Shown piece after piece: positions 4,082 through 49,617 of a stretch of DNA of 54,316 bases (the stretch's first letter is position 1; every line of letters starts with the position of its first letter). The notes beneath the pieces are model-generated. The model was not told the DNA's origin, did not search any database, and saw nothing but the letters and a program-made list of their open reading frames with translations. The position numbers and the translations under genes were made by a program. Source of the stretch: an uncultured Gammaproteobacteria bacterium (GTDB lineage Bacteria; Pseudomonadota; Gammaproteobacteria; JADZEE01); the NCBI GenBank assembly GCA_964493555.1, contig CAZBOQ010000085.1, positions 1-54,316 of the forward strand. Reading direction: 5' to 3'.

Positions 4082-4801
4082 TCATACGCGGAAGCCTCCG
4101 TGTCGGCGGCGATTGAGGTAATCCATGAAGAACACCCCCCCGCCGAAAGCCAACACTAAGACAATGAGTGTCCACAGAATATTATTGTTGTCACCCGGTA
4201 GATTCGAAGTGGCGAACAGAGCAAATTCCCGGTCCGGGTCCCGTCCTTCACGCATTAATGTGGTTTTGAGTTCCGCATTTTCCATTTCAAGTCGTTTTAC
4301 GTAGGCGCCGCTGGTCATGTCTCCGGTGGCCGACTGCAAGTGACCTAATTTAGCCTGCAGATCGGCGGCCTTCAACCGCTCCGAGCTAAGTTGTTCACGC
4401 AGTTCCACATTTTCTTTAGCCAGGCGTTCATCAGATGATGTTCTGTCGCCACCCTGGCCGGTCCGTAGCGCTCGTATTTGGCTCGCTAGCTCTTTGTTCT
4501 GCCGGTCAAATGCATCGACTACCAGCACTGCCGGTTGCTCTGTCATCAAATATCCGGCGTCAACCCAACCGACCGTGCCAGTGGGTTCGCGCACTTGCGC
4601 TAGTTCCTCATCCCGCTCTAAGACCTCAAGTTCAGTCCCGGTCGGTATCACTTTCAGGATCGGACTGTCCAACGTTTTGGTCTGATGTATGCCGATCAGG
4701 AGTCGATCGATCACATAGGCTGTTTCCGCGCCCGTAATGGTCGGGAATCCGGTCAAAATCAAACACACCATGCAGACAAGAGAGAAACTACTAACGTGCA
4801 T
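4082..4801 (-). CDS. SH3-domain membrane protein (YgiM/TIGR04211-like)
   Basis: An internal ATG at 4801 with upstream GGGGGG gives a signal peptide (MHVSSFSLVCMVCLILTG...), an SH3-like segment (GTVGWVDAGYL), a coiled coil and a C-terminal TM helix. The longer 327-aa ORF would overlap the prlC 3' end. Confidence 0.7.
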   Translation of the reverse strand: MHVSSFSLVCMVCLILTGFPTITGAETAYVIDRLLIGIHQTKTLDSPILKVIPTGTELEVLERDEELAQVREPTGTVGWVDAGYLMTEQPAVLVVDAFDRQNKELASQIRALRTGQGGDRTSSDERLAKENVELREQLSSERLKAADLQAKLGHLQSATGDMTSGAYVKRLEMENAELKTTLMREGRDPDREFALFATSNLPGDNNNILWTLIVLVLAFGGGVFFMDYLNRRRHGGFRV

Positions 4802-4829
4802 TTTGTCCCCCCGAGCCGGTCGTTTCTCG

Positions 4830-6875
4830 TTAAGCAGCAGTATTAATCCCGGACTGTCGCAACAGGGCATCAACCAAGGGCTCCCTACCGCGGAATTCAA
4901 TGAACAGATCCAACGCGTCCTTTGAACCTCCGCGCTCGAGAATACTGTGCATGAAACTTGCGCCGGTTGCCCGGTCAAATATACCGTTTTCCTTAAATTT
5001 CTCGAAGGCGTCAGCAGATAATACCTCCGCCCATTTATAACTGTAGTAACCCGCGGCATAGCCACCGGCGAAAATGTGCGCGAAACCGTTTTGGAACCGG
5101 TTGAATGGTGGGTACGGCACGACCGCGACCCGCTCTCGGACCTGTTCGATAACGGAAATTACATCAGTCCCGCGGGAAGGGTTGAAGTGCATGTGAAGTT
5201 CGAAGTCAAACAGGGCGAACTCGAGTTGGCGGAGCATATGTAGTGCGGCTTGAAAATTTTTTGCCGCCATCATCCGATCGAAAATGTTGCGCGGCAAAGG
5301 TTCCCCAGTCTCAAAGTGGCCGCTGATCAGCGTCAGGGCTTCGTACTCCCAACACCAGTTCTCGGTTAGTTGACTGGGAAGCTCGACGGCGTCCCACGCT
5401 ACTCCGTTTATTCCAGACACGGCAGAACGGTCGATCAGGGTAAGGATGTGATGCATTCCGTGACCGAACTCATGAAACAGGGTGACTACTTCCTCGTGGG
5501 TAAGTAGCGAGCATTCTCCGTCCACCGATGGGGTGAAATTGCAAGTGAGGAAAGCGACTGGAGTCTGTACGTAATCACTAAGTCGGCGACGATTAATGCA
5601 CTCATCCATCCATGCCCCACCGCGCTTGTTCGGGCGTGCGTACAGATCAGTGTAAAACATGCCGCGCAGCTGGTCGTTAGCGTCACTTACACGGAAGAAT
5701 CGCACATCCTTGTGCCAGGTCTGCACGTCGGCGACTTCGACGATCTTAAGTCCATAAAGACGGTCGACAGTAGCAAATAGTCCCGCCATTACACGATCGG
5801 CCGGGAAATAGGGCCGAAGTTCTTCCTGTGAAAACGCGAACTTGTCCACTCGAAGTTTCTCAGAATAGTACGCAACATCCCAGGCTTCGATGTTGCTGTG
5901 TCCCCAATGGGTTGCGGCGTAGTCGGTGAGTTCGCGAAATTCGCGGAGCGCTTGCGGTTTGGATTTGTCCACTAGATCCTGAAGAAACGTGAGGACTTGC
6001 TGTTCGGCCTTGGCCATCTTGGTGGTGAGCGAGAACTGCGTATAGTTCTGGTAACCCAGTAGCGTCGCTAGCTCCTTGCGCAGCGCCAAAATTCGCACCA
6101 TGTGTTCGCTGTTGTCGTATTCGCAAGCGCATGGCCCTTGGTCCGACGCCCGTGTTACATAAGCTTCGTAAAGTTCGAGCCGCAGTTGCCGGTCGTCGGC
6201 GTACCGCATTACTGGCAGGTAGGAGGGCATGTCCAGGGTGAAGGTCCAGCCTTGTAAGCCTGTGTCCTGGGCGGTTTGTCGGGCTAGCGCACGCGCGGAT
6301 TCCGGCAGGCCGCGCAGCTTATCCTCGTCAGTGACGGTCTTTCTCCACGCGGCGGTTGCATCGAGCAGGTTTTCTTCAAACTTGGTCTGTGCCTCTACCA
6401 GTTCGCTTTGAAGTCTCTTATAGCGTTCGCGTTCGTCATCAGGGAGACCGATCCCGGCCAGTTCAAAATCGCGCACTTGGTGCCGAACAAGCTGTTGCTC
6501 GGGTTGGCTTAGTGAGTCGAAATTGGTCGCGGTGGCGATCGAACGGAACAAAGCATAAAGCGCCTCATTCTGGCCAAGTTCTGTTTGGTACTCGGTGATC
6601 TTGCGCATCGCATTTTTGTAGGCTTGGCGCAGCCGCTCATCGTCGCGAACGCTATGCAGGTGCCTAACCGGCGCCCAGGCCCGTTGTAGCCGGTCTTCCA
6701 AATCTTCAAGCGGCAATATGGTCGAGTTGAAATCGTCGGTACGCGCATTGCTGGCTAAGGCTAAAAGACCAGCACGATTGTCCGCGAGGATACGGTCTAT
6801 AGCGGGCTCTACGTGCGCCGAGTCGATGAGTTCGAATGGCGGTAAGAGAGAGTCTTCAAGCAATGGATTCGACAT
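4830..6875 (-). CDS. prlC: Oligopeptidase A (M3 zinc metallopeptidase)
   Basis: 681 aa. HEFGH zinc motif within LFHEFGHGMHH. Overall M3 family architecture. Confidence 0.9.
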   Translation of the reverse strand: MSNPLLEDSLLPPFELIDSAHVEPAIDRILADNRAGLLALASNARTDDFNSTILPLEDLEDRLQRAWAPVRHLHSVRDDERLRQAYKNAMRKITEYQTELGQNEALYALFRSIATATNFDSLSQPEQQLVRHQVRDFELAGIGLPDDERERYKRLQSELVEAQTKFEENLLDATAAWRKTVTDEDKLRGLPESARALARQTAQDTGLQGWTFTLDMPSYLPVMRYADDRQLRLELYEAYVTRASDQGPCACEYDNSEHMVRILALRKELATLLGYQNYTQFSLTTKMAKAEQQVLTFLQDLVDKSKPQALREFRELTDYAATHWGHSNIEAWDVAYYSEKLRVDKFAFSQEELRPYFPADRVMAGLFATVDRLYGLKIVEVADVQTWHKDVRFFRVSDANDQLRGMFYTDLYARPNKRGGAWMDECINRRRLSDYVQTPVAFLTCNFTPSVDGECSLLTHEEVVTLFHEFGHGMHHILTLIDRSAVSGINGVAWDAVELPSQLTENWCWEYEALTLISGHFETGEPLPRNIFDRMMAAKNFQAALHMLRQLEFALFDFELHMHFNPSRGTDVISVIEQVRERVAVVPYPPFNRFQNGFAHIFAGGYAAGYYSYKWAEVLSADAFEKFKENGIFDRATGASFMHSILERGGSKDALDLFIEFRGREPLVDALLRQSGINTAA

Positions 6876-6992
6876 GCGGTTATGGTTTTATTTTTGTTAT
6901 GTGCGACGAGGCTAATGTAACACATCAGGTAGCAAATCGAGGTGATGTTGGAAGCGCCGTCGTTAGCAAGAGGAGATTTCGATGTAATCCGG

Positions 6993-7008
6993 AATGATAA
7001 TAATTATC
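6993..7008. promoter_or_regulatory. Fur box (iron-responsive operator)
   Basis: AATGATAATAATTATC matches 15 of 16 positions of the core of the GATAATGATAATCATTATC consensus. It lies between divergent prlC and bfr, just upstream of the bfr -35 element. Confidence 0.65.
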
Positions 7009-7031
7009 ATTTTAAATCAGCTATTTACAGC

Positions 7032-7059
7032 TTGACAGCAGGCGCTGCTGGTCTATAGT
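7032..7059 (+). promoter_or_regulatory. Sigma-70-type promoter for bfr
   Basis: TTGACA-N16-TATAGT, about 40 bp upstream of the bfr ATG. Confidence 0.55.
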
Positions 7060-7098
7060 GGAACCGAAACTACCGTACCTTCCGCTTAGGAGATCTTC

Positions 7099-7563
7099 AT
7101 GCAGGGCGACACACAAGTACTCGCACATTTGAACGTCATTTTGAAAAATGAACTTATCGCGATTAATCAGTATTTTCTACACTCACGAATGCTGAAGGAC
7201 TGGGGTCTCACGTCACTCGCTGAGCATGAGTACAACGAATCGATCGATGAGATGAAGCATGCCGATGCGTTGGTGCAACGTATTCTGTTTCTCGAAGGCC
7301 TGCCGAATCTCCAGGATCTGGGGCAACTGCGCATTGGCGAGGACACCGCCGAGATCCTGGCTGCAGATCTCGCCCTTGAGCACGATGCAATACCGCCCCT
7401 ACGGGAGGCGATTACCCATTGCGAAGACGTCAAAGACTTTGTCTCACGTGAATTGGTGGAATCGATATTGGAAAGTGAGGAAGAGCACTTGGATTGGTTA
7501 GAGACACAGCTGGACCTGATTGGCAAAATGGGGTTGCAGAACTACCTTCAGTCGGGTACCTGA
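7099..7563 (+). CDS. bfr: Bacterioferritin
   Basis: 154 aa. [31 protein letters not shown] and the ferroxidase-centre E/H pattern (EHEY..E..H, EEEH) are typical of Bfr. Confidence 0.9.
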
Positions 7564-7690
7564 AGGAGGGAAATAGCAGTAGCGGGATCTCGATCAGCTC
7601 TCCTTCCTTTTGGACCCTCCTTAAGGGAGCCCTTTGTTTTCCTTGGTGAGGTGCGTAGCCATCTTAGCGCTGGGTTGCCTTGCATTCGTG

Positions 7691-7736
7691 TTGCGAATAC
7701 TTCTCATTAGTACTACAATTCTTAGTACTACAATTC
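7691..7736 (+). promoter_or_regulatory. Putative bfd promoter containing a perfect 15-bp tandem duplication
   Basis: TTGCGA-N17-TACAAT (7691..7719). TTAGTACTACAATTC occurs twice back to back (7707..7721, 7722..7736), which duplicates the -10-like TACAAT. Confidence 0.4.
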
Positions 7737-7765
7737 AGCTATTGACCAGCGAGAATCGCAATCTT

Positions 7766-7960
7766 ATGTACGTATGTGTCTGCCGAGCGGTAACTGAAAG
7801 AGATATCCAGAACGCTGTTGAAAAGGGCGCTTGCTGTATGCAGGAACTGCAGGATACTCTCAATGTTTCAACCGTTTGCGGTGCTTGCCAGGGTGTGGCC
7901 GAGGCTTGTTTCGAGCGCTTCGCCGGTGTCACAAACGCAACTAACCAAATCGCCGCGTAG
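7766..7960 (+). CDS. bfd: Bacterioferritin-associated ferredoxin (Bfd, 2Fe-2S)
   Basis: MYVCVCRAVTERDI...VCGACQG shows the C-x-C...C-x-x-C Bfd cluster pattern. 64 aa starting at the internal ATG 7766; the longer ORF-track N-terminus is hydrophobic junk over the promoter region. Confidence 0.8.
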   Translation: MYVCVCRAVTERDIQNAVEKGACCMQELQDTLNVSTVCGACQGVAEACFERFAGVTNATNQIAA

Positions 7961-8719
7961 CTACTTTACCGTTTTTTGTTTACCGCAAACCGAGCAATCC
8001 GGATCGCGGTTAAGGGCTATTTTGCGCCACTCCATAGTCAACGCATCCAGCACTAGCAGCCAGCCGCACAATGATTCACCAATTTGTGTTATCAGTTTCA
8101 GCGCCTCCATTGCTTGCACGCTACCGATGACGCCAAGCAATGGCGCAACCACGCCAGTATCGGCGCAGCGCTCCTCTTCGTCCGGCTCATCACTATAGAG
8201 GCAGCGGTAGCAGGGCGAACTTTCCTGCCCTGGCAAAAACACCGTCACTTGGCCAGCGAAGCGCAATGCCGCGCCTGAGACCAACGGTGTACCAGTGCGG
8301 TGGCAGGCCTTATTAATCGCGAAGCGGGTCGAGAAATTATCGCTGGCATCGAGGACAACATCGGCTGCGCCCACTTGCGCGTCGAGTTCCGTTACTCCCA
8401 AGCGAGTGCCGATGGTGGTGACGGTGGTTTCCGGATTCAATGCGACCACGCGGTCCCGCGCCGATTCAACTTTCGGCCGATTCAGATCGGAGCTTGTATG
8501 AATAATCTGCCGCTGCAGGTTCGAAAGCTCAACCTCGTCGAAGTCCACCAGAACCAGATGACCGGTGCCGGCCGCAGCGAGATACATTGCTGCCGGAGAA
8601 CCCAGCCCACCGAGACCGATGATCAATATCCGCGCGCCCAGCAGGCGTTCTTGGCCGGCCAGATCAATCTCCGGTAGCAAGATCTGGCGGCTATACCGTA
8701 ATAATTGCCCGTCTTCCAT
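7961..8719 (-). CDS. moeB: Molybdopterin-synthase adenylyltransferase (MoeB/ThiF family)
   Basis: GLGGLGSP nucleotide-binding loop and two C-x-x-C pairs (CYRC, CSVC). It sits downstream of hemA-prfA-prmC, the position I recall moeB occupying in pseudomonads. Confidence 0.8.
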   Translation of the reverse strand: MEDGQLLRYSRQILLPEIDLAGQERLLGARILIIGLGGLGSPAAMYLAAAGTGHLVLVDFDEVELSNLQRQIIHTSSDLNRPKVESARDRVVALNPETTVTTIGTRLGVTELDAQVGAADVVLDASDNFSTRFAINKACHRTGTPLVSGAALRFAGQVTVFLPGQESSPCYRCLYSDEPDEEERCADTGVVAPLLGVIGSVQAMEALKLITQIGESLCGWLLVLDALTMEWRKIALNRDPDCSVCGKQKTVK

Positions 8720-8724
8720 CCATC

Positions 8725-9579
8725 TCAGCTCGCAAGCACTCCGCCACTGACGCGCGAATGCCCCGACAGATCAGTAAAAGTGGTCACTGATGAGAAACGT
8801 TGAATTGCGAGCAGTTGTTGCACCGCTTCTGCTTGTTTGTCGCCGTGTTCCAACATCAACCATCCGCCGCGGCGGAGATGGTTGCCTGCGCCGTCGATGA
8901 TTTGGCGAATAGCAAGTAAACCGTCCACGCCGCCGATTAGCGCTTTGCGCGGTTCGTGGTGAATACCGCCGCCGGTAAGGGCTGGATCACCATTAGCGAC
9001 GTACGGCGGATTGGCGGTTATTAGTCCAAAGCGCCGGCCTGAGAAAGCGCTGTACCAGTCACCACATACAAACTCAGTGTTGATGATACCTAGACGGACC
9101 GCGTTGCGCTTGGCTACGCTGATGGCGTTCTCTGAGATATCGACGCCCACGACCCGAGCGGTTGGGCATTCCACTGCCAGTGCCAGTGCTATGGCACCGC
9201 AGCCGGTGCCGAGATCGGCGATGGTCCCGACGTCCTTCTGTCGAGCGATTTCCAAAGCCTTCTCCACCAGAAGCTCGGTTTCTGGCCGGGGAATCAGCGT
9301 GTGAGAAGTTACTTGTAAATCTAACGACCAGAATTCCTTGCGACCGAGCAGATACGCAACCGGAACACCGGCTTGTCGTTTAGCGATAAATTGGCGGAAC
9401 CGGGCTTCCTGTGCAAGGTCAACGTTGTTGTTTGGGTTTGCCACCAATGCGGCGCGACCCACCGCCGTTACCTCTGCAAGAAGCACTTCTGCATCCAAGC
9501 GCGGTGAGCTTGACGCGCCAAGCTCGGCGATACCAAACGCGAGTAGTTCCCCGACTGAACGAGTCTCCGGCTCCGCCAT
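8725..9579 (-). CDS. prmC: Release-factor glutamine N5-methyltransferase
   Basis: SAM motif DLGTGCGAIA and catalytic NPPY. Immediately downstream of prfA. Confidence 0.9.
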   Translation of the reverse strand: MAEPETRSVGELLAFGIAELGASSSPRLDAEVLLAEVTAVGRAALVANPNNNVDLAQEARFRQFIAKRQAGVPVAYLLGRKEFWSLDLQVTSHTLIPRPETELLVEKALEIARQKDVGTIADLGTGCGAIALALAVECPTARVVGVDISENAISVAKRNAVRLGIINTEFVCGDWYSAFSGRRFGLITANPPYVANGDPALTGGGIHHEPRKALIGGVDGLLAIRQIIDGAGNHLRRGGWLMLEHGDKQAEAVQQLLAIQRFSSVTTFTDLSGHSRVSGGVLAS

Positions 9580-9587
9580 GTCGTAAC

Positions 9588-10670
9588 TTAGTCCCCGAGC
9601 TCCCCGATCAAATCCGCTTGATGTTCCCGGATCAAGGGTTCGATCAACATGTCCAATTCTCCGGCCAGGATCGCTTCCAAACGTTCGAGCTTCAAGTTAA
9701 TACGGTGATCGGTAACTCGCCCTTGCGGAAAATTGTAAGTTCTGATTCGTTGTGAGCGATCGCCACTTCCCACAAGGTCGCGCCGGTTCTGCGCGATCTC
9801 GGCCTGTTGGCGCTCGCGGTCTGCGGCGGTCAGTTTGGCTTGTAAAAGACTCATGGCACGGGCTTTGTTCTTGTGCTGCGAACGCTCATCCTGGCATTCC
9901 ACGACGATGCCACTTGGCAGATGGGTGATGCGTATTGCAGAGTCGGTTTTGTTCACATGTTGCCCTCCAGCACCCGAAGCCCGAAAAGTATCGATCCTTA
10001 GATCGCCGCTTTGTAACTCAACCTCGCCAATCTCCTCAGTCTCAGGCAGCACCGCAACCGTGCAGGCCGAGGTATGAATACGGCCCTGTGATTCGGTTTC
10101 TGGAACACGCTGTACCCGATGCGCGCCCGATTCGAACTTGAGCCGTGAATAAGCACCACGCCCGGTGACGCGGGCTATTATCTCCTTCTGTCCGCCGAGA
10201 TCGCTAGTGTTTTCATGGAGCACTTCCACGCTCCAACCACGCGCCTCCGCATAGCGCGCATACATGCGAAAGATATCAGCAGCAAACAGTGCGGCCTCGT
10301 TGCCGCCGGTGCCAGCGCGGATCTCGAGAAAAATGTTGCTGTCGTCTGCGGGGTCCTCGGGAAGTAGCATCACCTGCAGTTGTTCCACGAATCGATCAGC
10401 TTCTTGTTGTGCGCCTTGTAGCTCTTCGCTGGCGAGATCACGGATGCCAGGCTCCGTATCCTTCATCATTTCCCGCGCGTTCTCCACCGTCTGTACGGCG
10501 TTCCGGTACTTAGCAAAGCATTGCACCACTGGTGCTATTTCGGCGTGTTCGCGCGAGTATGCGCGGAATTTGGTTTGGTCACGAATGATCTCCGCATCGG
10601 CCAGCAACGCATCGAGTTCAACCAAACGCTCGGAGATTACTTCAAGCTTTTTGGACAGCGATTCTTTCAT
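9588..10670 (-). CDS. prfA: Peptide chain release factor 1
   Basis: 360 aa. The [14 protein letters not shown] (GGQ) motif and RF-1 domain layout are present, and the RF1 codon-recognition tripeptide PET ([10 protein letters not shown]) is in the expected PxT position. Confidence 0.95.
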
Positions 10671-10704
10671 GGTCGCGCGTAGCGATTTACATCCATTGTC
10701 TGGA

Positions 10705-11955
10705 TTAGTCCAAATCGAACAGCGCGCGAGCGATGGCTATGAACTCATCGTTGTCATTTGCGCCGGCTTCGCGCAGTTTTACGCTTGGGTTATGCATGAG
10801 TTTGTTTACCAGCAAATTCATCACTGCTTTAAGGACCACCTCCGGATCTTGGCCTTTGGCGAGACGCTTCTTCGCTTGCGACAACATAGCCTGTTTCAGC
10901 GCCTCGCTTGCAACTCGCATTTCCTGGATTGTGGCAGCTGCGTCATTCGCTTTAAGCCAGTCCTGGTAGCGGTTCGCCTGCGCGACAACGATTTCATTCG
11001 CTTGGGTCGCCGCGACTTCGCGCGACCGGATGTTGTCTTGTACTACCGTACGTAAATTGTCTACTGAATACAGATATACATCGGCCAATGTGCCTACCGA
11101 GGCTTCAATGTCCCGCGGAACGGCGATGTCGACCATAAATATTGGGCGTCGGCGCCGGGTTTTTATCGCTTCCTCGACTGTGTCGCGATGAAGGATCGGT
11201 TCGGACGCCGTAGTGGCCGAAACGACAATGTCCGCATCTGCCAGATGCCGGCTGAGATCGTCCAACTGAATTGCGTAGCCCCCATATTTGCTGGCGAGGT
11301 TCTGGGCCCGCTCTATAGTTCGGTTTGCGACTATCAAGCGGCCAAGGCCATTTTCAGCGAGATGGTTGGCGGTGAGTTCGATGGTGTCGCCGGCGCCGAG
11401 TAGGAGGGCGGTACGTTGTTTCAGATCGCCGTGAATCTGTTGTGCTAGCCGCACCGCGGCGAAGGCAACCGAAACCGGAGAGGATCCGATCGAGGTGTCG
11501 GTTCGTATCTGTTTGGCAACATGAAAGGCGTGCTGAAAGAGTTTGTTCAAACGCTTTCCGACGACTCGCTGATCGACCGCTGCTTTATAGGCATCTTTGA
11601 GTTGGCCCAGGATCTGCGGCTCCCCGAGCACCATGGAGTCGAGCCCCGCGGCGACCCGCAAGATGTGGCGGACAGCCGCGAGATCTTCGCATTCGAACAA
11701 ATGTGATTCGAGTTCGGTTGCCGCCATGTCGTGGAACCGGCTCAACCAATCGGCGAGAGGATTGTCATGTTGCCGTTCGACGCCGCTGTAGATCTCAGTG
11801 CGATTGCAAGTCGATAAGAGCGCCACCTCATCGATGCTGGGGTGTTCGCTGAGCTCGCGAAGCGCCTCGGGGAGAGCATCTTCGCTGACGGCGAGCCGCT
11901 CCCTGACCTCTATCGAAGCGGTGCGATGGTTAACGCCGATGACCGAAAGCAGCAT
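10705..11955 (-). CDS. hemA: Glutamyl-tRNA reductase
   Basis: N-terminal [15 protein letters not shown] and the catalytic LSTCNRTE motif. NADPH-binding GAGDTIEL. 416 aa. Confidence 0.95.
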
Positions 11956-19334: not shown

Positions 19335-19525
19335 GGTGCCCTCCGTAAGAGTGCCGTTACCTAACCTGTCACTTGAACCGTCGGTCCAAGAGGGAACGTG
19401 GCCGAACGAATCAGGCTTGCCGCTGATATGCGGCCATGCACAACATCGTTCCAGGTTCGGTTCCTGCGGTGAGTATCATAGGCTCAAGCATACCGGGTTA
19501 GCTCGCGAACACTACAGAGGGCACC
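19335..19525 (-). ncRNA. ssrS: 6S RNA (SsrS)
   Basis: It lies immediately downstream of zapA on the same strand, the classical zapA-ssrS arrangement. The ends GGUGCCCUC... and ...GAGGGCACC form a 9-bp closing stem. Internal GGAACG/CGUUCC pairing flanks an unpaired centre. About 190 nt with no credible ORF. Confidence 0.7.
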
Positions 19526-43652: not shown

Positions 43653-44854
43653 TAGTTCTTCCCAGTCATGGCGATAACCTTGTTCTGGAAAACTGCCACA
43701 CCAGCCTCCAGATCTGAAAGGTGCACCGTATCGATAGCGCCGCTGGCGCAATTGCTATGGATCCCTTCGCAGACCATAGTGTCTTGGCTGATCGTATCCA
43801 TCTGTTGCAACACGCTCAGCTCGCGATTGAATAATTCACCGAAGTCTTTCGGCGGCCCGACGAAATAGTGATCCATCTCCCAATAGGTTTCGTTCGGGCT
43901 GAGTGGCCAGACACGCTGTACCACAATTTGATCGTCTTCGAATAAGAACACCAGATTAGGAAACACTACATAAAGATCGAATACCCAACGATTGCTTTGG
44001 CTGGCATTGATGGCGCCGGGATAGCGGGCAGCAGCTTGGCTTGTGTCCTTTTCTGTCCACATCCCTGACTTGCTGTAGTTGGCGGCCAGCCGCGCCAGGT
44101 CTGTTTGCGGCGGGGGCTTGCCGTCGGCGGTTCGGGGCCGCGAGACCACGATCTTTGCCATTATCGACGGGCTGTCAGGGAAGATATCAGTGGGGTAGTC
44201 AGCGGGTGTAAACGGCGCCCCTATCGTAGTCTGGTGGAGGAAAGCGGCGTGGTGTCCTTCGCATTGATTGTCGAGGAAGATCTTCCAGTTGGCGTTGAAC
44301 CGGCCGTTGTAGCCGGCAAACCATTGCCAATCTTCATTCGCCAGGTAGTCGGCCAGTGCTGTGGGCAGCTGTTGCAAGAAATCGGCAAGTGTTTGTTCCG
44401 GCTCGGCATCCAGACAGACGAAGATGAACCCGCCCCAGGTATCCAACGAGACGGCATTGAGGTGCATTGCGTCCGTATCGAGCGAAGGGAAGTGTTTGCC
44501 TAAAGGTACACCGATTAACTTTCCTTGGAGATCGTAAGTCCAGCCGTGAAAGGAACAACGGAGTTGTTTGCACGATCCGACACAATCGTACTGCAGTCGC
44601 GCGCCGTGATGCAGGCAGGCATTGTGAAAGGCGCGTGGTTTTTCGTCCTTACCGCGAATTACTATCACCGAGGTGTTGAGTGCCCGCAGGGAGAAGAGGA
44701 AATAGTCACCGGCGTTAGGGATGTCGCTTAGTCGTCCGACCAATAACCACGATGCGCGCCACACTGCGTCCTTTTCGCGCTCGAAGAACGCCGGATCGGA
44801 ATATTGGTTAACCGGTATTTGGGCATACGAAGGGTTGTTGTCTGGATGTGCCAT
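43652..44854 (-). CDS. Rieske [2Fe-2S] aromatic-ring-hydroxylating oxygenase, alpha subunit
   Basis: Rieske motif C-L-H-x17-C-S-F-H (CLHHGARL...CSFHGWTY) and a mononuclear-iron segment NQCEGHHAAFLH. Confidence 0.85.
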   Translation of the reverse strand: MAHPDNNPSYAQIPVNQYSDPAFFEREKDAVWRASWLLVGRLSDIPNAGDYFLFSLRALNTSVIVIRGKDEKPRAFHNACLHHGARLQYDCVGSCKQLRCSFHGWTYDLQGKLIGVPLGKHFPSLDTDAMHLNAVSLDTWGGFIFVCLDAEPEQTLADFLQQLPTALADYLANEDWQWFAGYNGRFNANWKIFLDNQCEGHHAAFLHQTTIGAPFTPADYPTDIFPDSPSIMAKIVVSRPRTADGKPPPQTDLARLAANYSKSGMWTEKDTSQAAARYPGAINASQSNRWVFDLYVVFPNLVFLFEDDQIVVQRVWPLSPNETYWEMDHYFVGPPKDFGELFNRELSVLQQMDTISQDTMVCEGIHSNCASGAIDTVHLSDLEAGVAVFQNKVIAMTGKN

Positions 44855-47026: not shown

Positions 47027-47776
47027 ATGAGCTCGTCGCGGGTCGCCATCGTGACTGGCGCTGGCAGTGGAATCGGCAGAGCAAGCGCACTTGGGTTGCT
47101 CAACGACGGGTATCAAGTGGCACTGGCCGGGCGGCGCGGCGATGCGTTGGAAGAAACGGCGGCAATGGCTAATGGTGCGGGTAGCTTAATTGTTCCCACG
47201 GACGTTACCGATCCTAGTTCCGTCAAGCAGTTGTTTGCTCGGACGCGGGAAGTCTTTACGCGACTCGACCTACTGTTTAATAACGCCGGGATCTTTGGTC
47301 CTAAGGTCCTGCTCGAAGACATTACTTACGACGAATGGCGATCGGTGGTGGATATCAATTTAACCGGTGCGTTGTTGTGTACGCAGGAAGCGTTTCGGGT
47401 GATGAAGTCGCAGCATCCCATGGGCGGGCGCATCATAAACAATGGCTCGGTGTCGGCCGTTACGCCGCGACCGGATTCGGCTCCGTACACGGCGACCAAG
47501 CATGCGATGACAGGCCTCACTAAGTCCACGTCGTTGGACGGACGTAAGTACGATATTGCCTGTGGCCAAATCGACATCGGCAACGCTGTGACTGAGCTAA
47601 TCAGCGATCAGCAAACCGGGATGCTGCAGCCTGATGGCTCGATCATCCCTGAAGCGACTATGGAAGTGGAGAACGTGGCCCGTGCTGTGGTTTATATGGC
47701 GAGCTTGCCGCTGGACGCCAACGTTCAGTTTATGACTGTGATGGCCACGAAAATGCCACTTGTCGGAAGAGGGTGA
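47027..47776 (+). CDS. Short-chain dehydrogenase/reductase (SDR)
   Basis: [10 protein letters not shown] cofactor motif, NNAG, and catalytic Y-x-x-x-K (YTATKHA). Confidence 0.85.
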
Positions 47777-47897: not shown

Positions 47898-49007
47898 TCA
47901 TTCAGCCGTCCTGGAGTGATTTAGCGAATCTAGCCCCAGCTTGACGCGCATTTGCGCTGTTGCTTGTTCTTTATAGCCTTCCAGTGGAATACCGGTAGCG
48001 TCCGCGGCACGTGGGTACCCGTTGAACGCGGCTATCACCCCAGCGATATCCACCAGTGCTCCTTCGCCTAGTGTAGTGACAATCTGTTGGCGTGCTCTGT
48101 CTGCACGAGCTGTTTCACGTCCACAAATAGCCTCAGCGAATTCATTTAACAGAGCGCCGTGCGGCAATCCGCCACCGCTCGCATCCTTACCGATCGCCGC
48201 TTCGAGTCCGTACGCATTGCCGGTGTGTTCGCCGCTCATACTGAGCCGCATTGCATGACTGGTAGTTCAGTAGAAACAATCAAGGTAGGCCGAGACGCGT
48301 GCCGCAAGAAATTCTATTTGGGCACGTGAGATGTCGCGATCGACATTCTCCAATTCGGTAACGGCTGGATTGTTCATGTACAACGGGTCCATAAGATCCC
48401 AAAAACGATTCAGCTCATCCGGTACCAAGGTCAACGAGCGGCGAATGAATTGCTGGCCGCGGTCGTAGAAATCCTGGAGTTCGGGTCCGGTGTCGTCAGG
48501 TCCAATGGTTGGTGCCCAGCCGGGTCCGAGTTTCGCCCCGCCGGGGCGTTGTCGCGGTGGAATACCCTCACCGGCCTCAGCTGGGAGTGGTGTAGGGGTT
48601 AACCCGATACCTCGCATGAAAGTATCGGCACAGGTCACGATGGTGGTGAGGCTTGTCAGCTCGATGAATTCATCTTCCGACATATCATCAGCAATTACCG
48701 ACTCATACCAACTCTCGGTGATACGTCCTGAGTCGGTAACTATACGGTGGACGGCTTCGATCCAGGGCTCGGGTAGGACGCCCAGATGAGCGTGATCACC
48801 ATCGACGGAGTATGGTGACAGCGCTTCTTTGCGACGCCGGCATAGGGGACAATTCCAGGCGTTGCGTGCTTCATTTGCGATCGCGAGGCGCTGCTCGCCG
48901 GGTAGCCAGGCGCCAACCTCGGCAACACTGTTCCAGGTTCTGGCCAGCGCGCCCGTTATGTCCGCGCGCACTGATACCGGTGAAGTGTCTAGCGTCTTCG
49001 CATGCAT
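47898..49007 (-). CDS. Candidate AhpD/CMD-family selenoprotein (read-through of in-frame TGA at 48267..48269); otherwise a disrupted gene
   Basis: Two same-frame ORFs are separated by one TGA and five sense codons. Joined, they read ..VSAYLD-C-F-Y-[TGA]-T-T-S-H-A.., matching the C-x-x-C-x-x-x-H CMD motif. The downstream ATG has no SD. Confidence 0.5.
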
Positions 49008-49122
49008 GTGGTCAATGCTAACCGGGCGTTGTGGGTTTCGACAAGAGATATCATTTGTTACACGCTTGGTGACAGTGGCACTTGCGTCTATGCTGTCGGT
49101 TCACGCTTGCGGGGAGAACAAC

Positions 49123-49617
49123 GTGTCAGCACAACAATCAGTCGAAGCTAAGATCGAGGCTTTAGGGCTATACCTTCCAGAGCCGATCAAGCCGCCGCCC
49201 GGTGTGGTGCTTCCCTTTCAATTCGTGCGGGTGAGCGGCGACCGCGCTTATGTATCGGGGCACGGACCGCAGCAAGCCGATGGATCGCTGGCCGGACCAT
49301 TCGGAAAAGTTGGGACGGATGTTTCGGAAGAGGAGGCCTATCAGGTGGCGCGGTTGGTTACCCTTGCGATGATCGCTAGCCTCAAACGGGAGCTTGGAGA
49401 TTTGGACAGGATCAAGGCTTGGTTGCGGGTATTCGGGATGGTCAACGCGGCGCCGAGTTTCGTCAGGACGCCATTGGTAATCAATGGTTGTTCAGATTTA
49501 CTGTTCGAGTTATTTGGCCCCGAGCGCGGGCAACATGCAAGATCCGCGGTTGGGATGGCCTCGCTACCGTTTGATCTGGCGGTTGAGATTGAAGCTGAGG
49601 TTCTAATTGATGCTTGA
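49123..49617 (+). CDS. RidA/YjgF-family (endoribonuclease L-PSP-like) protein
   Basis: VSGHGP...G..GKVG.....E.A...AR......L...LG.LDRI and a terminal E.E pattern typical of the RidA fold. The GTG at 49123 is preceded by GGGGAG; ATG 49090 is an alternative. The ORF-track N-terminus is antisense to the neighbouring gene. Confidence 0.65.
   Translation: MSAQQSVEAKIEALGLYLPEPIKPPPGVVLPFQFVRVSGDRAYVSGHGPQQADGSLAGPFGKVGTDVSEEEAYQVARLVTLAMIASLKRELGDLDRIKAWLRVFGMVNAAPSFVRTPLVINGCSDLLFELFGPERGQHARSAVGMASLPFDLAVEIEAEVLIDA

What the first reader, a model, noticed from the sequence alone, without database searches (positions are those of the whole stretch)
47898..49007. In-frame TGA at the second Cys of a C-x-x-C-x-x-x-H motif: candidate AhpD/CMD-family selenoprotein split into two ORFs
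The 246-aa ORF (48267..49007, minus) ends ...RAQIEFLAARVSAYLDCFY-TGA. The 117-aa ORF (47898..48251) is in the same frame, only five sense codons later (ACT ACC AGT CAT GCA, then ATG). Read-through gives ...YLD-C-F-Y-U-T-T-S-H-AMRLS... That is the C-x-x-C-x-x-x-H redox signature of the AhpD / carboxymuconolactone-decarboxylase fold, with TGA exactly at the second Cys. The downstream ATG has no Shine-Dalgarno sequence, so independent initiation looks unlikely. A short imperfect hairpin in the mRNA (48248..48230: CGGCUC-AGUAU-GAGC[GG]CG) puts a GU-containing apical loop 24 nt after the UGA, roughly where bacterial SECIS elements sit. AhpD-like selenoproteins have been reported from marine metagenomes, as far as I recall. 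This locus would be mis-annotated as two hypothetical proteins by any ORF caller. The alternative is a Cys(TGY)-to-TGA nonsense mutation or a base-call error.
Basis: partly seen in the sequence, partly recalled or inferred. Interest (0 to 1): 0.8.

Follow-up and report, generated by a model that had tools for sequence, protein, structure and literature searches.

The report
Known AhpD-related selenoprotein gene, mis-split

Summary
On the minus strand, the 246-codon ORF (49007..48267) ends ...YLDCFY-TGA and continues in frame to a second TGA stop at 47898. The 369-aa read-through matches NCBIfam NF041238, 'AhpD_rel_CFYUT, alkylhydroperoxidase-related (seleno)protein', over its full length (E 4.5e-126, 421 bits, cutoff 175).

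- **Conserved TGA.** In 80 related genomic loci from several phyla, 78 have TGA at exactly this codon and 2 have TGC. The rarer full-length homologues have Cys there.
- **Downstream part is coding.** It stays open in 79 of 80 loci. It is as conserved as the upstream part (dN/dS 0.12-0.17).
- **SECIS hairpin.** A 7-bp stem starts 17 nt after the UGA. It shows compensatory changes and has an invariant G in the loop. It meets all four constraints of the published bacterial SECIS model. It is absent from 5 of 6 Cys-form genes.
- **Link to Sec machinery.** In one relative the gene sits directly beside selA-selB-tRNA-Sec-selD.
- **Not a sequencing error.** An independent assembly of a near-identical strain has the same TGA.

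The family was first reported in 2005 as 'hypothetical protein 1' of the Sargasso Sea selenoproteome. The Sec machinery of this particular genome could not be checked, because it is not in the window.

Verdict: real, correctly interpreted, already known.

The parts
47898..49007 (-). Complete selenoprotein gene: 369 codons including one Sec-UGA, plus the terminal TGA stop at 47898..47900. Member of NF041238 (AhpD_rel_CFYUT).
   Evidence: sequence and frame. (NF041238: E 4.5e-126, 420.9 bits against a cutoff of 175, model 1-356 of 357). (tblastn matches in 80 loci run across the TGA to residue ~363-368).
48267..48269 (-). In-frame TGA read as selenocysteine (residue 247), the second position of the C-x-x-U redox motif.
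   Evidence: TGA in 78 of 80 related loci and TGC in 2. Cys in all 14 full-length Cys-form proteins aligned; the same TGA in independent assembly L083.
48231..48249 (-). Bacterial SECIS-type hairpin within the coding sequence. The 5' arm is GCGGCUC (48249..48243), the loop is AGUAU (48242..48238), and the 3' arm is GAGCGGC (48237..48231). There is one G.G mismatch. The invariant loop G is at 48241.
   Evidence: 88% of cells are paired, against 23-48% when the partner is slid. Four of 7 pairs show compensatory changes, and 0 of 500 shuffles reach the observed score. G29 is invariant in 79 of 79 sequences; the window hairpin folds at -10.4 kcal/mol. Cys-form loci have 2-5 of 7 pairs, and five of six fold at -0.3 to -3.8 kcal/mol.
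48255..48314 (-). Active-site segment E232-x11-C244-F-Y246-U247-T-T-S-H251. These are the five positions of the AhpD proton-relay and redox motif.
   Evidence: E232, C244 and Y246 are invariant or nearly so. H at +4 in all 80 loci. (PMC3141380): the spacing is the same as Glu36/Cys48/Tyr50/Cys51/His55 of P. aeruginosa PA0269 and Glu118/Cys130/His132/Cys133/His137 of M. tuberculosis AhpD.
47901..48452 (-). C-terminal AhpD-like lobe (residues ~186-369) that carries the C-x-x-U site.
   Evidence: PDB sequence matches 2pfx (query residues 186-340), 6k40 and 3c1l; the AlphaFold model of Cys-form homologue P0135 (pLDDT 90) matches AhpD-core structures 2prr, 3c1l and 6k40 (probability 1.0, TM 0.52-0.67 on the target).
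48453..49007 (-). N-terminal helical lobe (residues 1-185) with invariant C53-x-x-C56, H72 and H87. Probably a diverged second AhpD-like domain.
   Evidence: invariant columns. (all-helical, two lobes). (whole-length match to Sestrin2, TM 0.40-0.45). (hhalign of N lobe against C lobe is weak, E 0.009, but aligns C53xxC56 onto C244xxU247).

Best explanation
Window 49007..47898 (minus strand) is a single gene for a 369-residue selenoprotein of NCBIfam family NF041238, an AhpD-related protein. This family was first reported as 'hypothetical protein 1' of the Sargasso Sea selenoproteome.

Shown here:
- The UGA at codon 247 is conserved.
- It aligns with Cys in the minority Cys forms.
- It is followed by a conserved hairpin that fits the bacterial SECIS model.
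- The sequence after it is under purifying selection as protein.

Inferred from the established bacterial mechanism: SelB carrying Sec-tRNA(Sec) binds this hairpin while the ribosome is at the UGA and inserts selenocysteine instead of terminating.

Inferred for function: the product is a two-lobed, all-helical thiol/selenol oxidoreductase. Its C-terminal lobe carries the complete AhpD relay (Glu232, Cys244, Tyr246, Sec247, His251). Sec takes the place of the second Cys of the C-x-x-C pair and cycles with Cys244 through a selenenylsulfide. Its physiological substrate is unknown. It could be a peroxide, or a peroxiredoxin or other disulfide partner as with AhpD.
For: - **Family membership.** NF041238 hit at E 4.5e-126, full length.
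- **Conserved TGA.** 78 of 80 related loci across Gamma- and Alphaproteobacteria, Acidobacteria, Lentisphaeria, Myxococcota, Methylomirabilota and Entotheonella have TGA in this column. Two have TGC.
- **Mis-calling elsewhere.** Nearly all database proteins of the family are called as ~245-aa fragments ending C-x-Y.
- **Cys forms.** Full-length Cys forms have Cys in the U column.
- **Downstream region.** It is open for 114-166 codons in 79 of 80 loci, with identity equal to the upstream part. dN/dS is 0.12-0.17.
- **No conserved internal start.** The internal ATG is replaced by Ala or other codons in many relatives.
- **Hairpin.** It shows compensatory changes and an invariant loop G across three different amino acids at that codon. 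It meets the four bSECIS constraints quoted in PMC13188914: 5-nt loop, 7-bp stem, G at loop position 2 followed by U, 24-nt spacing, and -10.4 kcal/mol.
- **Hairpin tracks the TGA.** It is lost in 5 of 6 Cys-form genes.
- **Sec machinery linkage.** L044 has the homologue immediately followed by selA, selB, tRNA-Sec and selD. L063 has selA adjacent.
- **Independent assembly.** Contig L083 differs by 3 SNPs in 1141 nt and has the same TGA and hairpin.
- **Fold and motif.**
Against: - No selA, selB, selD or tRNA-Sec lies in the 54-kb window. The rest of the genome is not available, so Sec competence of this organism is only inferred.
- The window hairpin alone is not more stable than shuffled sequence when a 76-nt stretch is folded (z = 0.08). 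Support for it comes from comparison, not from thermodynamics.
- No Rfam family matches it.
- No selenium incorporation or enzyme activity has been measured for any member, as far as the papers read here show.
- The Pfam CMD and TIGR AhpD models score below their cutoffs.
Confidence: 0.93

Rival explanations
1. Pseudogene: a Cys codon (TGC/TGT) mutated to TGA in this lineage, leaving a truncated 246-aa product and a decaying downstream remnant.
For: A single transition or transversion would do it. No sel genes are visible in the window. Gene callers treat it as two ORFs.
Against: The TGA is the ancestral and dominant state, found in 78 of 80 loci from several phyla. The downstream part has no further stops or frameshifts and matches the family model to its end. 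dN/dS is 0.12-0.17. The hairpin is intact.
Confidence: 0.03
2. Sequencing or assembly error at 48267..48269. The real codon is TGC/TGT and this is an ordinary Cys protein.
For: Single-base errors occur in metagenome assemblies.
Against: An independently assembled contig from another run (Logan DRR683870, L083) has the identical TGA and flanks, while differing at 3 other positions. Seventy-eight other genomes have TGA here.
Confidence: 0.01
3. Two separate genes: a 246-aa protein that naturally ends at ..CFY, and an independently translated 117-aa protein.
For: There is an ATG six codons after the TGA in this window, and annotation pipelines call two ORFs.
Against: There is no Shine-Dalgarno sequence before that ATG. 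The ATG is not conserved: it is Ala in many alphaproteobacterial loci, and several loci have no start codon in the first 12 codons. The frame is always kept. The catalytic His251 and the rest of the AhpD-like domain lie after the TGA, so either fragment would be half a domain. Cys forms are single 349-386-aa proteins.
Confidence: 0.02
4. UGA is decoded here, but not as Sec. It could be read by near-cognate read-through (Trp/Cys) or through a reassigned genetic code.
For: Without the genome's sel genes, Sec insertion is not directly shown.
Against: TGA is the commonest ordinary stop in the window, ending 17 of 40 long ORFs including this gene's own end. So the code is not reassigned. The hairpin has the specific SECIS features, and the family is physically linked to selA-selB-selC-selD in L044.
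Confidence: 0.01

Closest known systems
NCBIfam NF041238, AhpD_rel_CFYUT, 'alkylhydroperoxidase-related (seleno)protein'. Equivalent to 'hypothetical protein 1' of the Sargasso Sea selenoproteome (Zhang, Fomenko & Gladyshev 2005, PMC1088965; equivalence stated in PMC13188914).
   Same: Full-length match far above the curated cutoff. It has the same C-F-Y-U-T motif, the same C-x-x-U redox motif and the same SECIS position.
   Different: Nothing of substance. This is a gammaproteobacterial member, 70% identical to the nearest representative genome found (L001).
AhpD-like selenoproteins of marine metagenomes (AhpD-like 1: COG2128/TIGR01926; AhpD-like 2/CMD: PF02627; Zhang & Gladyshev 2008, PMC2398784).
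   Same: C-x-x-U motif in an AhpD-type helical domain. Marine and environmental distribution.
   Different: Those are single-domain proteins of about 180 aa. This family is twice as long, with an extra N-terminal lobe. It scores below the cutoffs of TIGR01926 (28.7 against 81.8) and PF02627 (18.1 against 23).
M. tuberculosis AhpD and P. aeruginosa PA0269 (AhpD-like structural family, PMC3141380).
   Same: The same five-residue relay with identical spacing (Glu-x11-Cys-x-Tyr/His-Cys-x3-His) and the same all-helical fold.
   Different: Sec replaces the second Cys. The architecture is two-lobed. There is no evidence for an AhpC or lipoamide partner. Sequence similarity is marginal (PDB E-values 0.004-0.04).
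Sestrin2 (PDB 5dj4, 5t0n).
   Same: One chain built of two AhpD-like helical lobes. It is the best whole-length structural match (TM 0.40-0.45, probability 0.98).
   Different: Eukaryotic, with no Sec. Sequence identity is 11-13% and the Foldseek E-value only 0.03. The resemblance is architectural, not evidence of common function.
E. coli fdhF-type bacterial SECIS and the bSECIS consensus model (as summarised in PMC13188914).
   Same: A hairpin in the coding sequence just after the UGA, with a small loop and G then U near the start of the loop. Spacing and energy are within the model's limits.
   Different: The sequence is unrelated to fdhF. No bulged U could be assessed. SelB binding is untested.

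Membership tests
NF041238 AhpD_rel_CFYUT (seleno)protein | HMM score above the curated equivalog cutoff over the full length | tested here: met
   420.9 bits against a cutoff of 175, E 4.5e-126, model positions 1-356 of 357, protein residues 13-363.
NF041238 AhpD_rel_CFYUT (seleno)protein | C-F-Y-U-T motif with Sec (or Cys) at the fourth position | tested here: met
   C244-F-Y-TGA-T; the same column is TGA in 78 of 80 loci.
Bacterial selenoprotein gene | In-frame UGA that aligns with Cys in homologues and with UGA in homologues of other organisms | tested here: met
Bacterial selenoprotein gene | bSECIS model: 3-9 nt loop, 4-16 bp upper stem, G in the first two loop positions, 16-37 nt between UGA and loop, MFE <= -7.5 kcal/mol (PMC13188914) | tested here: met
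   loop AGUAU (5 nt, G second, U third), 7-bp stem with one mismatch, 24 nt spacing, -10.4 kcal/mol. There are compensatory changes in 4 of 7 pairs across 69 distinct sequences.
Bacterial selenoprotein gene | Coding sequence continues under selection after the UGA | tested here: met
   (open in 79 of 80 loci, with identity similar to the N-terminal part). (dN/dS 0.12-0.17).
Bacterial selenoprotein gene | selA, selB, selD and tRNA-Sec present in the same genome | not testable with these tools
   None are in the 54-kb window, and the rest of the genome is not held. At family level, L044 has selA-selB-tRNA-Sec-selD directly after the homologue, and L063 has selA adjacent.
Bacterial selenoprotein gene | Selenium incorporated into the protein (75Se labelling or mass spectrometry) | not testable with these tools
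   Requires an experiment.
AhpD / CMD superfamily (PF02627, TIGR00778) | Score above the Pfam or TIGRFAM cutoff | tested here: not met
   PF02627 scores 18.1 against 23. TIGR00778 scores 14.5 against 27.8, and TIGR01926 scores 28.7 against 81.8. It is a distant relative only.
AhpD / CMD superfamily (PF02627, TIGR00778) | Glu-x11-Cys-x-x-Cys-x3-His relay motif | tested here: met
   E232, C244, Y246, U247 and H251. The spacing is identical to PA0269 and MtAhpD.
AhpD / CMD superfamily (PF02627, TIGR00778) | All-helical AhpD-core fold | tested here: met
   This was tested on the Cys-form homologue P0135 (41% identical), not on the window protein itself. The AF2 model has pLDDT 90. Foldseek gives probability 1.0 and TM 0.52-0.67 to 2prr, 3c1l and 6k40.
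AhpD / CMD superfamily (PF02627, TIGR00778) | Alkylhydroperoxidase or AhpC-reducing activity | not testable with these tools
   No ahpC or lipoamide-system gene is next to it. An enzyme assay is needed.

The most novel reading that the evidence does not exclude
The family may not be a simple AhpD-type peroxide-defence adaptor. It may instead be a self-contained two-centre redox enzyme. In this reading, the invariant N-lobe C53-x-x-C56 (with H72 and H87) passes electrons to the C-lobe C244-x-x-U247. The enzyme would serve oxygenase-based catabolism, for example reductive detoxification or dehalogenation as in the AhpD-fold debrominase Bmp8.

Three hints point this way:
- Rieske oxygenase genes recur within 10 kb in 17 of 84 loci, including Cys forms. 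They are the divergent immediate neighbour in the gammaproteobacterial relatives.
- The N-lobe CxxC aligns weakly but in register onto the C-lobe CxxU.
- Sec forms outnumber Cys forms heavily, which is unusual among selenoprotein families.
Probability: 0.1. Interest if true: 0.45.

Novelty: already known. Interest (0 to 1): 0.2.

Why it matters
There is little new biology here. The family has been known as a selenoprotein since 2005 and has a curated NCBIfam model.

The practical value is for annotation. The locus should be recorded as one 369-residue selenoprotein rather than two hypothetical proteins. The same mis-split affects almost every database entry of this family seen here: about 119 of the best 120 hits are ~245-aa fragments. 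The gene also marks its host as very probably selenocysteine-competent.

The function of the family is still unknown.

Tried and rejected
- **Rfam.** Scans of the whole window at gathering thresholds and of 48100..48350 at E <= 10 found no SECIS family match. This is uninformative, because bacterial SECIS elements are short and gene-specific.
- **Single-sequence folding.** Folding 76 nt after the UGA gave z = 0.08 against shuffles. Thermodynamics alone does not single out the hairpin.
- **Sec machinery in the window.** tblastn with E. coli SelA, SelB and SelD, and ARAGORN for tRNA-Sec, found nothing in the window.
- **Other selenoprotein genes in the window.** A scan for redox-motif TGA read-throughs found only this one as a credible case.
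- **Full-text search for 'CFYUT'.** No papers.
- **Conserved operon partner.** None was found. The window's neighbours are not syntenic across loci, apart from a loose recurrence of Rieske oxygenases.
- **Internal duplication.** hhalign of the N lobe against the C lobe is suggestive only (E 0.009, probability 4%).

Full report
**Observation**

- A 246-codon ORF starts at ATG 49007 and ends ...RVSAYLDCFY-TGA, with the TGA at 48269..48267.
- The same frame continues ACT ACC AGT CAT GCA ATG and a further 116 codons, to a TGA stop at 47900..47898.
- The read-through product is 369 residues and contains E232-x11-C244-F-Y-U247-T-T-S-H251.
- There is no Shine-Dalgarno-like purine run before the internal ATG.

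**What it is**

The read-through product, with U written as C, matches NCBIfam NF041238.1. This model is 'AhpD_rel_CFYUT', an equivalog model named 'alkylhydroperoxidase-related (seleno)protein'. The match has E 4.5e-126 and 420.9 bits against a curated cutoff of 175, and covers model positions 1-356 of 357.

General AhpD/CMD models score below their cutoffs:
- PF02627: 18.1 against 23.
- TIGR01926: 28.7 against 81.8.
- TIGR00778: 14.5 against 27.8.

So the protein is AhpD-related rather than a typical CMD-family member.

[quoted passage not shown] The 2005 Sargasso Sea paper reported that family from four sequences. It noted a conserved CXXU motif and a SECIS-like stem-loop (PMC1088965). AhpD-like CxxU selenoproteins in general are among the commonest marine selenoproteins (PMC2398784).

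**Comparative evidence that the TGA is decoded**

A protein search returned 444 relatives. Almost all of the best 120 are 243-249-aa fragments that end C-[FYLVM]-Y. Gene callers stop at the same codon everywhere.

A scan of one genome per GTDB species returned 80 loci with tblastn matches running across the TGA to residue ~363-368. The loci come from Gamma- and Alphaproteobacteria, Acidobacteria, Lentisphaeria, Myxococcota, Methylomirabilota and Entotheonella, and share 33-70% identity with the query.
- In 78 of the 80 loci the codon is TGA. In two (L060, L075) it is TGC.
- A search with the one full-length hit (P0108) found a small group of 349-386-aa Cys forms. All of those aligned have Cys in the U column.
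- The region after the TGA stays open for 114-166 codons in 79 of 80 loci. Its identity to the window equals that of the upstream part, for example 69%/73% in L001, 54%/63% in L012 and 40%/42% in L049.
- Its dN/dS against L001, L002, L003 and L009 is 0.12-0.17.
- The internal ATG is not conserved. It is Ala in many alphaproteobacterial loci, and some loci have no start codon at all in the first 12 codons.

**The recoding signal**

An ungapped alignment of the TGA plus 51 nt from 79 Sec-type genes (A2) shows a hairpin. Columns 21-27 pair with columns 33-39, and the loop is columns 28-32.
- 88% of cells are paired, against 23-48% when the 3' partner is slid by 1-3 columns.
- Four of 7 pairs have compensatory changes: CG to UA at 27-33, GC to AU at 24-36, CG to AU at 22-38, and GC to CG or AU at 21-39.
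- None of 500 shuffles reach the observed covariation.
- RNAalifold independently finds the core of the hairpin.
- The loop G at column 29 is invariant in 79 of 79 sequences, although the codon it sits in encodes Arg, Ser or Gly.
- The Leu codon that forms the 5' core is CTC in 72 of 79 sequences. The Ser codon of the 3' core is always AGY, except for two GGC.

In the window, the stem is 48249..48243 / 48237..48231 and the loop is AGUAU. The spacing from the UGA to the loop is 24 nt and the folding energy is -10.4 kcal/mol. These values satisfy all four constraints of the bacterial SECIS model as quoted in PMC13188914.

Six Cys-form genes (L060, L075, L084-L087) have only 2-5 of the 7 pairs. 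Five of them fold at -0.3 to -3.8 kcal/mol and lack the loop G. The exception, L087, keeps a hairpin and the G.

Folding the window sequence alone is not distinctive (z = 0.08), and Rfam has no matching family. The support is therefore comparative.

**Link to the Sec machinery**

The window contains no selA, selB, selD or tRNA-Sec. This says little for 54 kb of a genome.

At family level the link is direct. In L044 the homologue (4248-5312) is followed by selA (5497-6861), selB (6894-8768), tRNA-Sec (8866-8961) and selD (10306-11292). In L063, selA abuts the homologue.

**Alternatives**

- **Base-call error.** This is excluded. Logan contig L083, from a different sequencing run, differs from the window at 3 of 1141 positions and has the same TGA and hairpin. 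There too the gene is called as 246 + 117 aa.
- **Reassigned code.** This is excluded, because TGA ends 17 of 40 long ORFs in the window, including this gene.
- **Lineage-specific nonsense mutation.** This is contradicted by the phylogenetic breadth of the TGA.
- **Two independent genes.** This is contradicted by the missing and non-conserved start, the fixed frame, and the fact that the TGA falls in the middle of a domain.

**Protein architecture and likely chemistry**

PDB sequence search aligns residues 186-340 with AhpD-type proteins. These are 2pfx (motif CFYCLVAH), 6k40 (D. radiodurans AhpD) and 3c1l.

The model has pLDDT 90 and pTM 0.89, and is an all-helical two-lobed protein.
- Foldseek matches the AhpD-core structures 2prr, 3c1l, 6k40 and Bmp8 with probability 0.92-1.0 and TM 0.52-0.67.
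- Over the whole length it matches Sestrin2, itself two AhpD-like lobes, with TM 0.40-0.45.
- Foldseek E-values are weak throughout (0.03-0.7).

E232, C244, Y246, U247 and H251 reproduce, with identical spacing, the relay Glu36/Cys48/Tyr50/Cys51/His55 of PA0269. They also reproduce Glu118/Cys130/His132/Cys133/His137 of M. tuberculosis AhpD (PMC3141380).

My inference is that Sec247 is the reactive nucleophile and that it forms a selenenylsulfide with Cys244 during turnover. The substrate is unknown.

The N lobe has its own invariant C53-x-x-C56, H72 and H87. A profile comparison of the two lobes is weak (E 0.009) but places C53xxC56 on C244xxU247. This is compatible with an old internal duplication.

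**Context**

The gene stands alone on the minus strand. An SDR gene (47027..47773, +) lies on one side and a YjgF/RidA-type gene (~49155..49614, +) followed by an MMPL transporter lies on the other. Further downstream are PNPOx, amidase, Rieske oxygenase, MFS and HpaB genes.

This order is not conserved in relatives. Rieske oxygenase homologues do recur within 10 kb in 17 of 84 loci. They are the divergent immediate neighbour in five gammaproteobacterial loci. I did not establish a background rate for this.

**Verdict**

The locus is an ordinary member of a selenoprotein family that is already described and curated. The remaining gaps are the Sec machinery of this particular genome, which is not available here, and any experimental proof of Se incorporation or activity for the family.

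Noticed in passing
window 19336..19523 (-): 6S/SsrS RNA gene, Rfam RF00013, 72.4 bits, full length.
   Followed up: no
L044 4248..11292: In an alphaproteobacterial MAG, the homologous selenoprotein gene is directly followed by selA, selB, tRNA-Sec and selD. This forms a compact Sec-machinery-plus-client cluster. L063 has selA adjacent to its copy.
   Followed up: partly
L080 ~14744 and 4816..5025: A Methylomirabilota locus carries a second TGA-containing AhpD-like paralogue (CHY-TGA-TNSH). It also has a SelD-like fragment abutting a 5'-truncated copy of the family gene.
   Followed up: no
L087 520..1680: One Cys-form gene (P0206, CAFCAPIH) still has a stable hairpin (-9.2 kcal/mol) and the loop G at the SECIS position. 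This may mark a recent Sec-to-Cys switch.
   Followed up: no
L045 ~10678: This is the only locus where the reading frame after the TGA closes after 40 codons. It may be a pseudogene or an assembly error.
   Followed up: no
window 48840..48851 (-), plus H72 and H87: The N-terminal lobe has an invariant C53-x-x-C56 with two invariant His. A weak profile alignment puts this CxxC in register with the C-lobe CxxU. This suggests an internally duplicated AhpD-like domain and perhaps a second redox or metal site.
   Followed up: partly
window 43655..44854 (-); L004, L006, L007, L008, L040 ~9353..9781; L084, L085: Rieske-type oxygenase genes recur near family members, in 17 of 84 loci within 10 kb. They are the divergent immediate neighbour in the gammaproteobacterial relatives, and they also occur near Cys forms. 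L084 additionally has amidase and RidA genes, as the window does. No background rate was computed.
   Followed up: partly
window 48829..49617 (+): The 262-codon TTG-start ORF that overlaps the 5' end of the selenoprotein gene on the other strand is an over-extension. Only its last ~150 residues match YjgF/RidA. In L083 the caller gives a 200-aa product that starts 8 nt from the selenoprotein ATG, so the two genes are tightly divergent.
   Followed up: no
protein database hits: Sec forms of this family vastly outnumber Cys forms: about 119 of 120 best hits, and 78 of 80 representative genomes. Nearly every public entry is a truncated ~245-aa 'hypothetical protein'. This is a systematic annotation error across databases.
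   Followed up: partly
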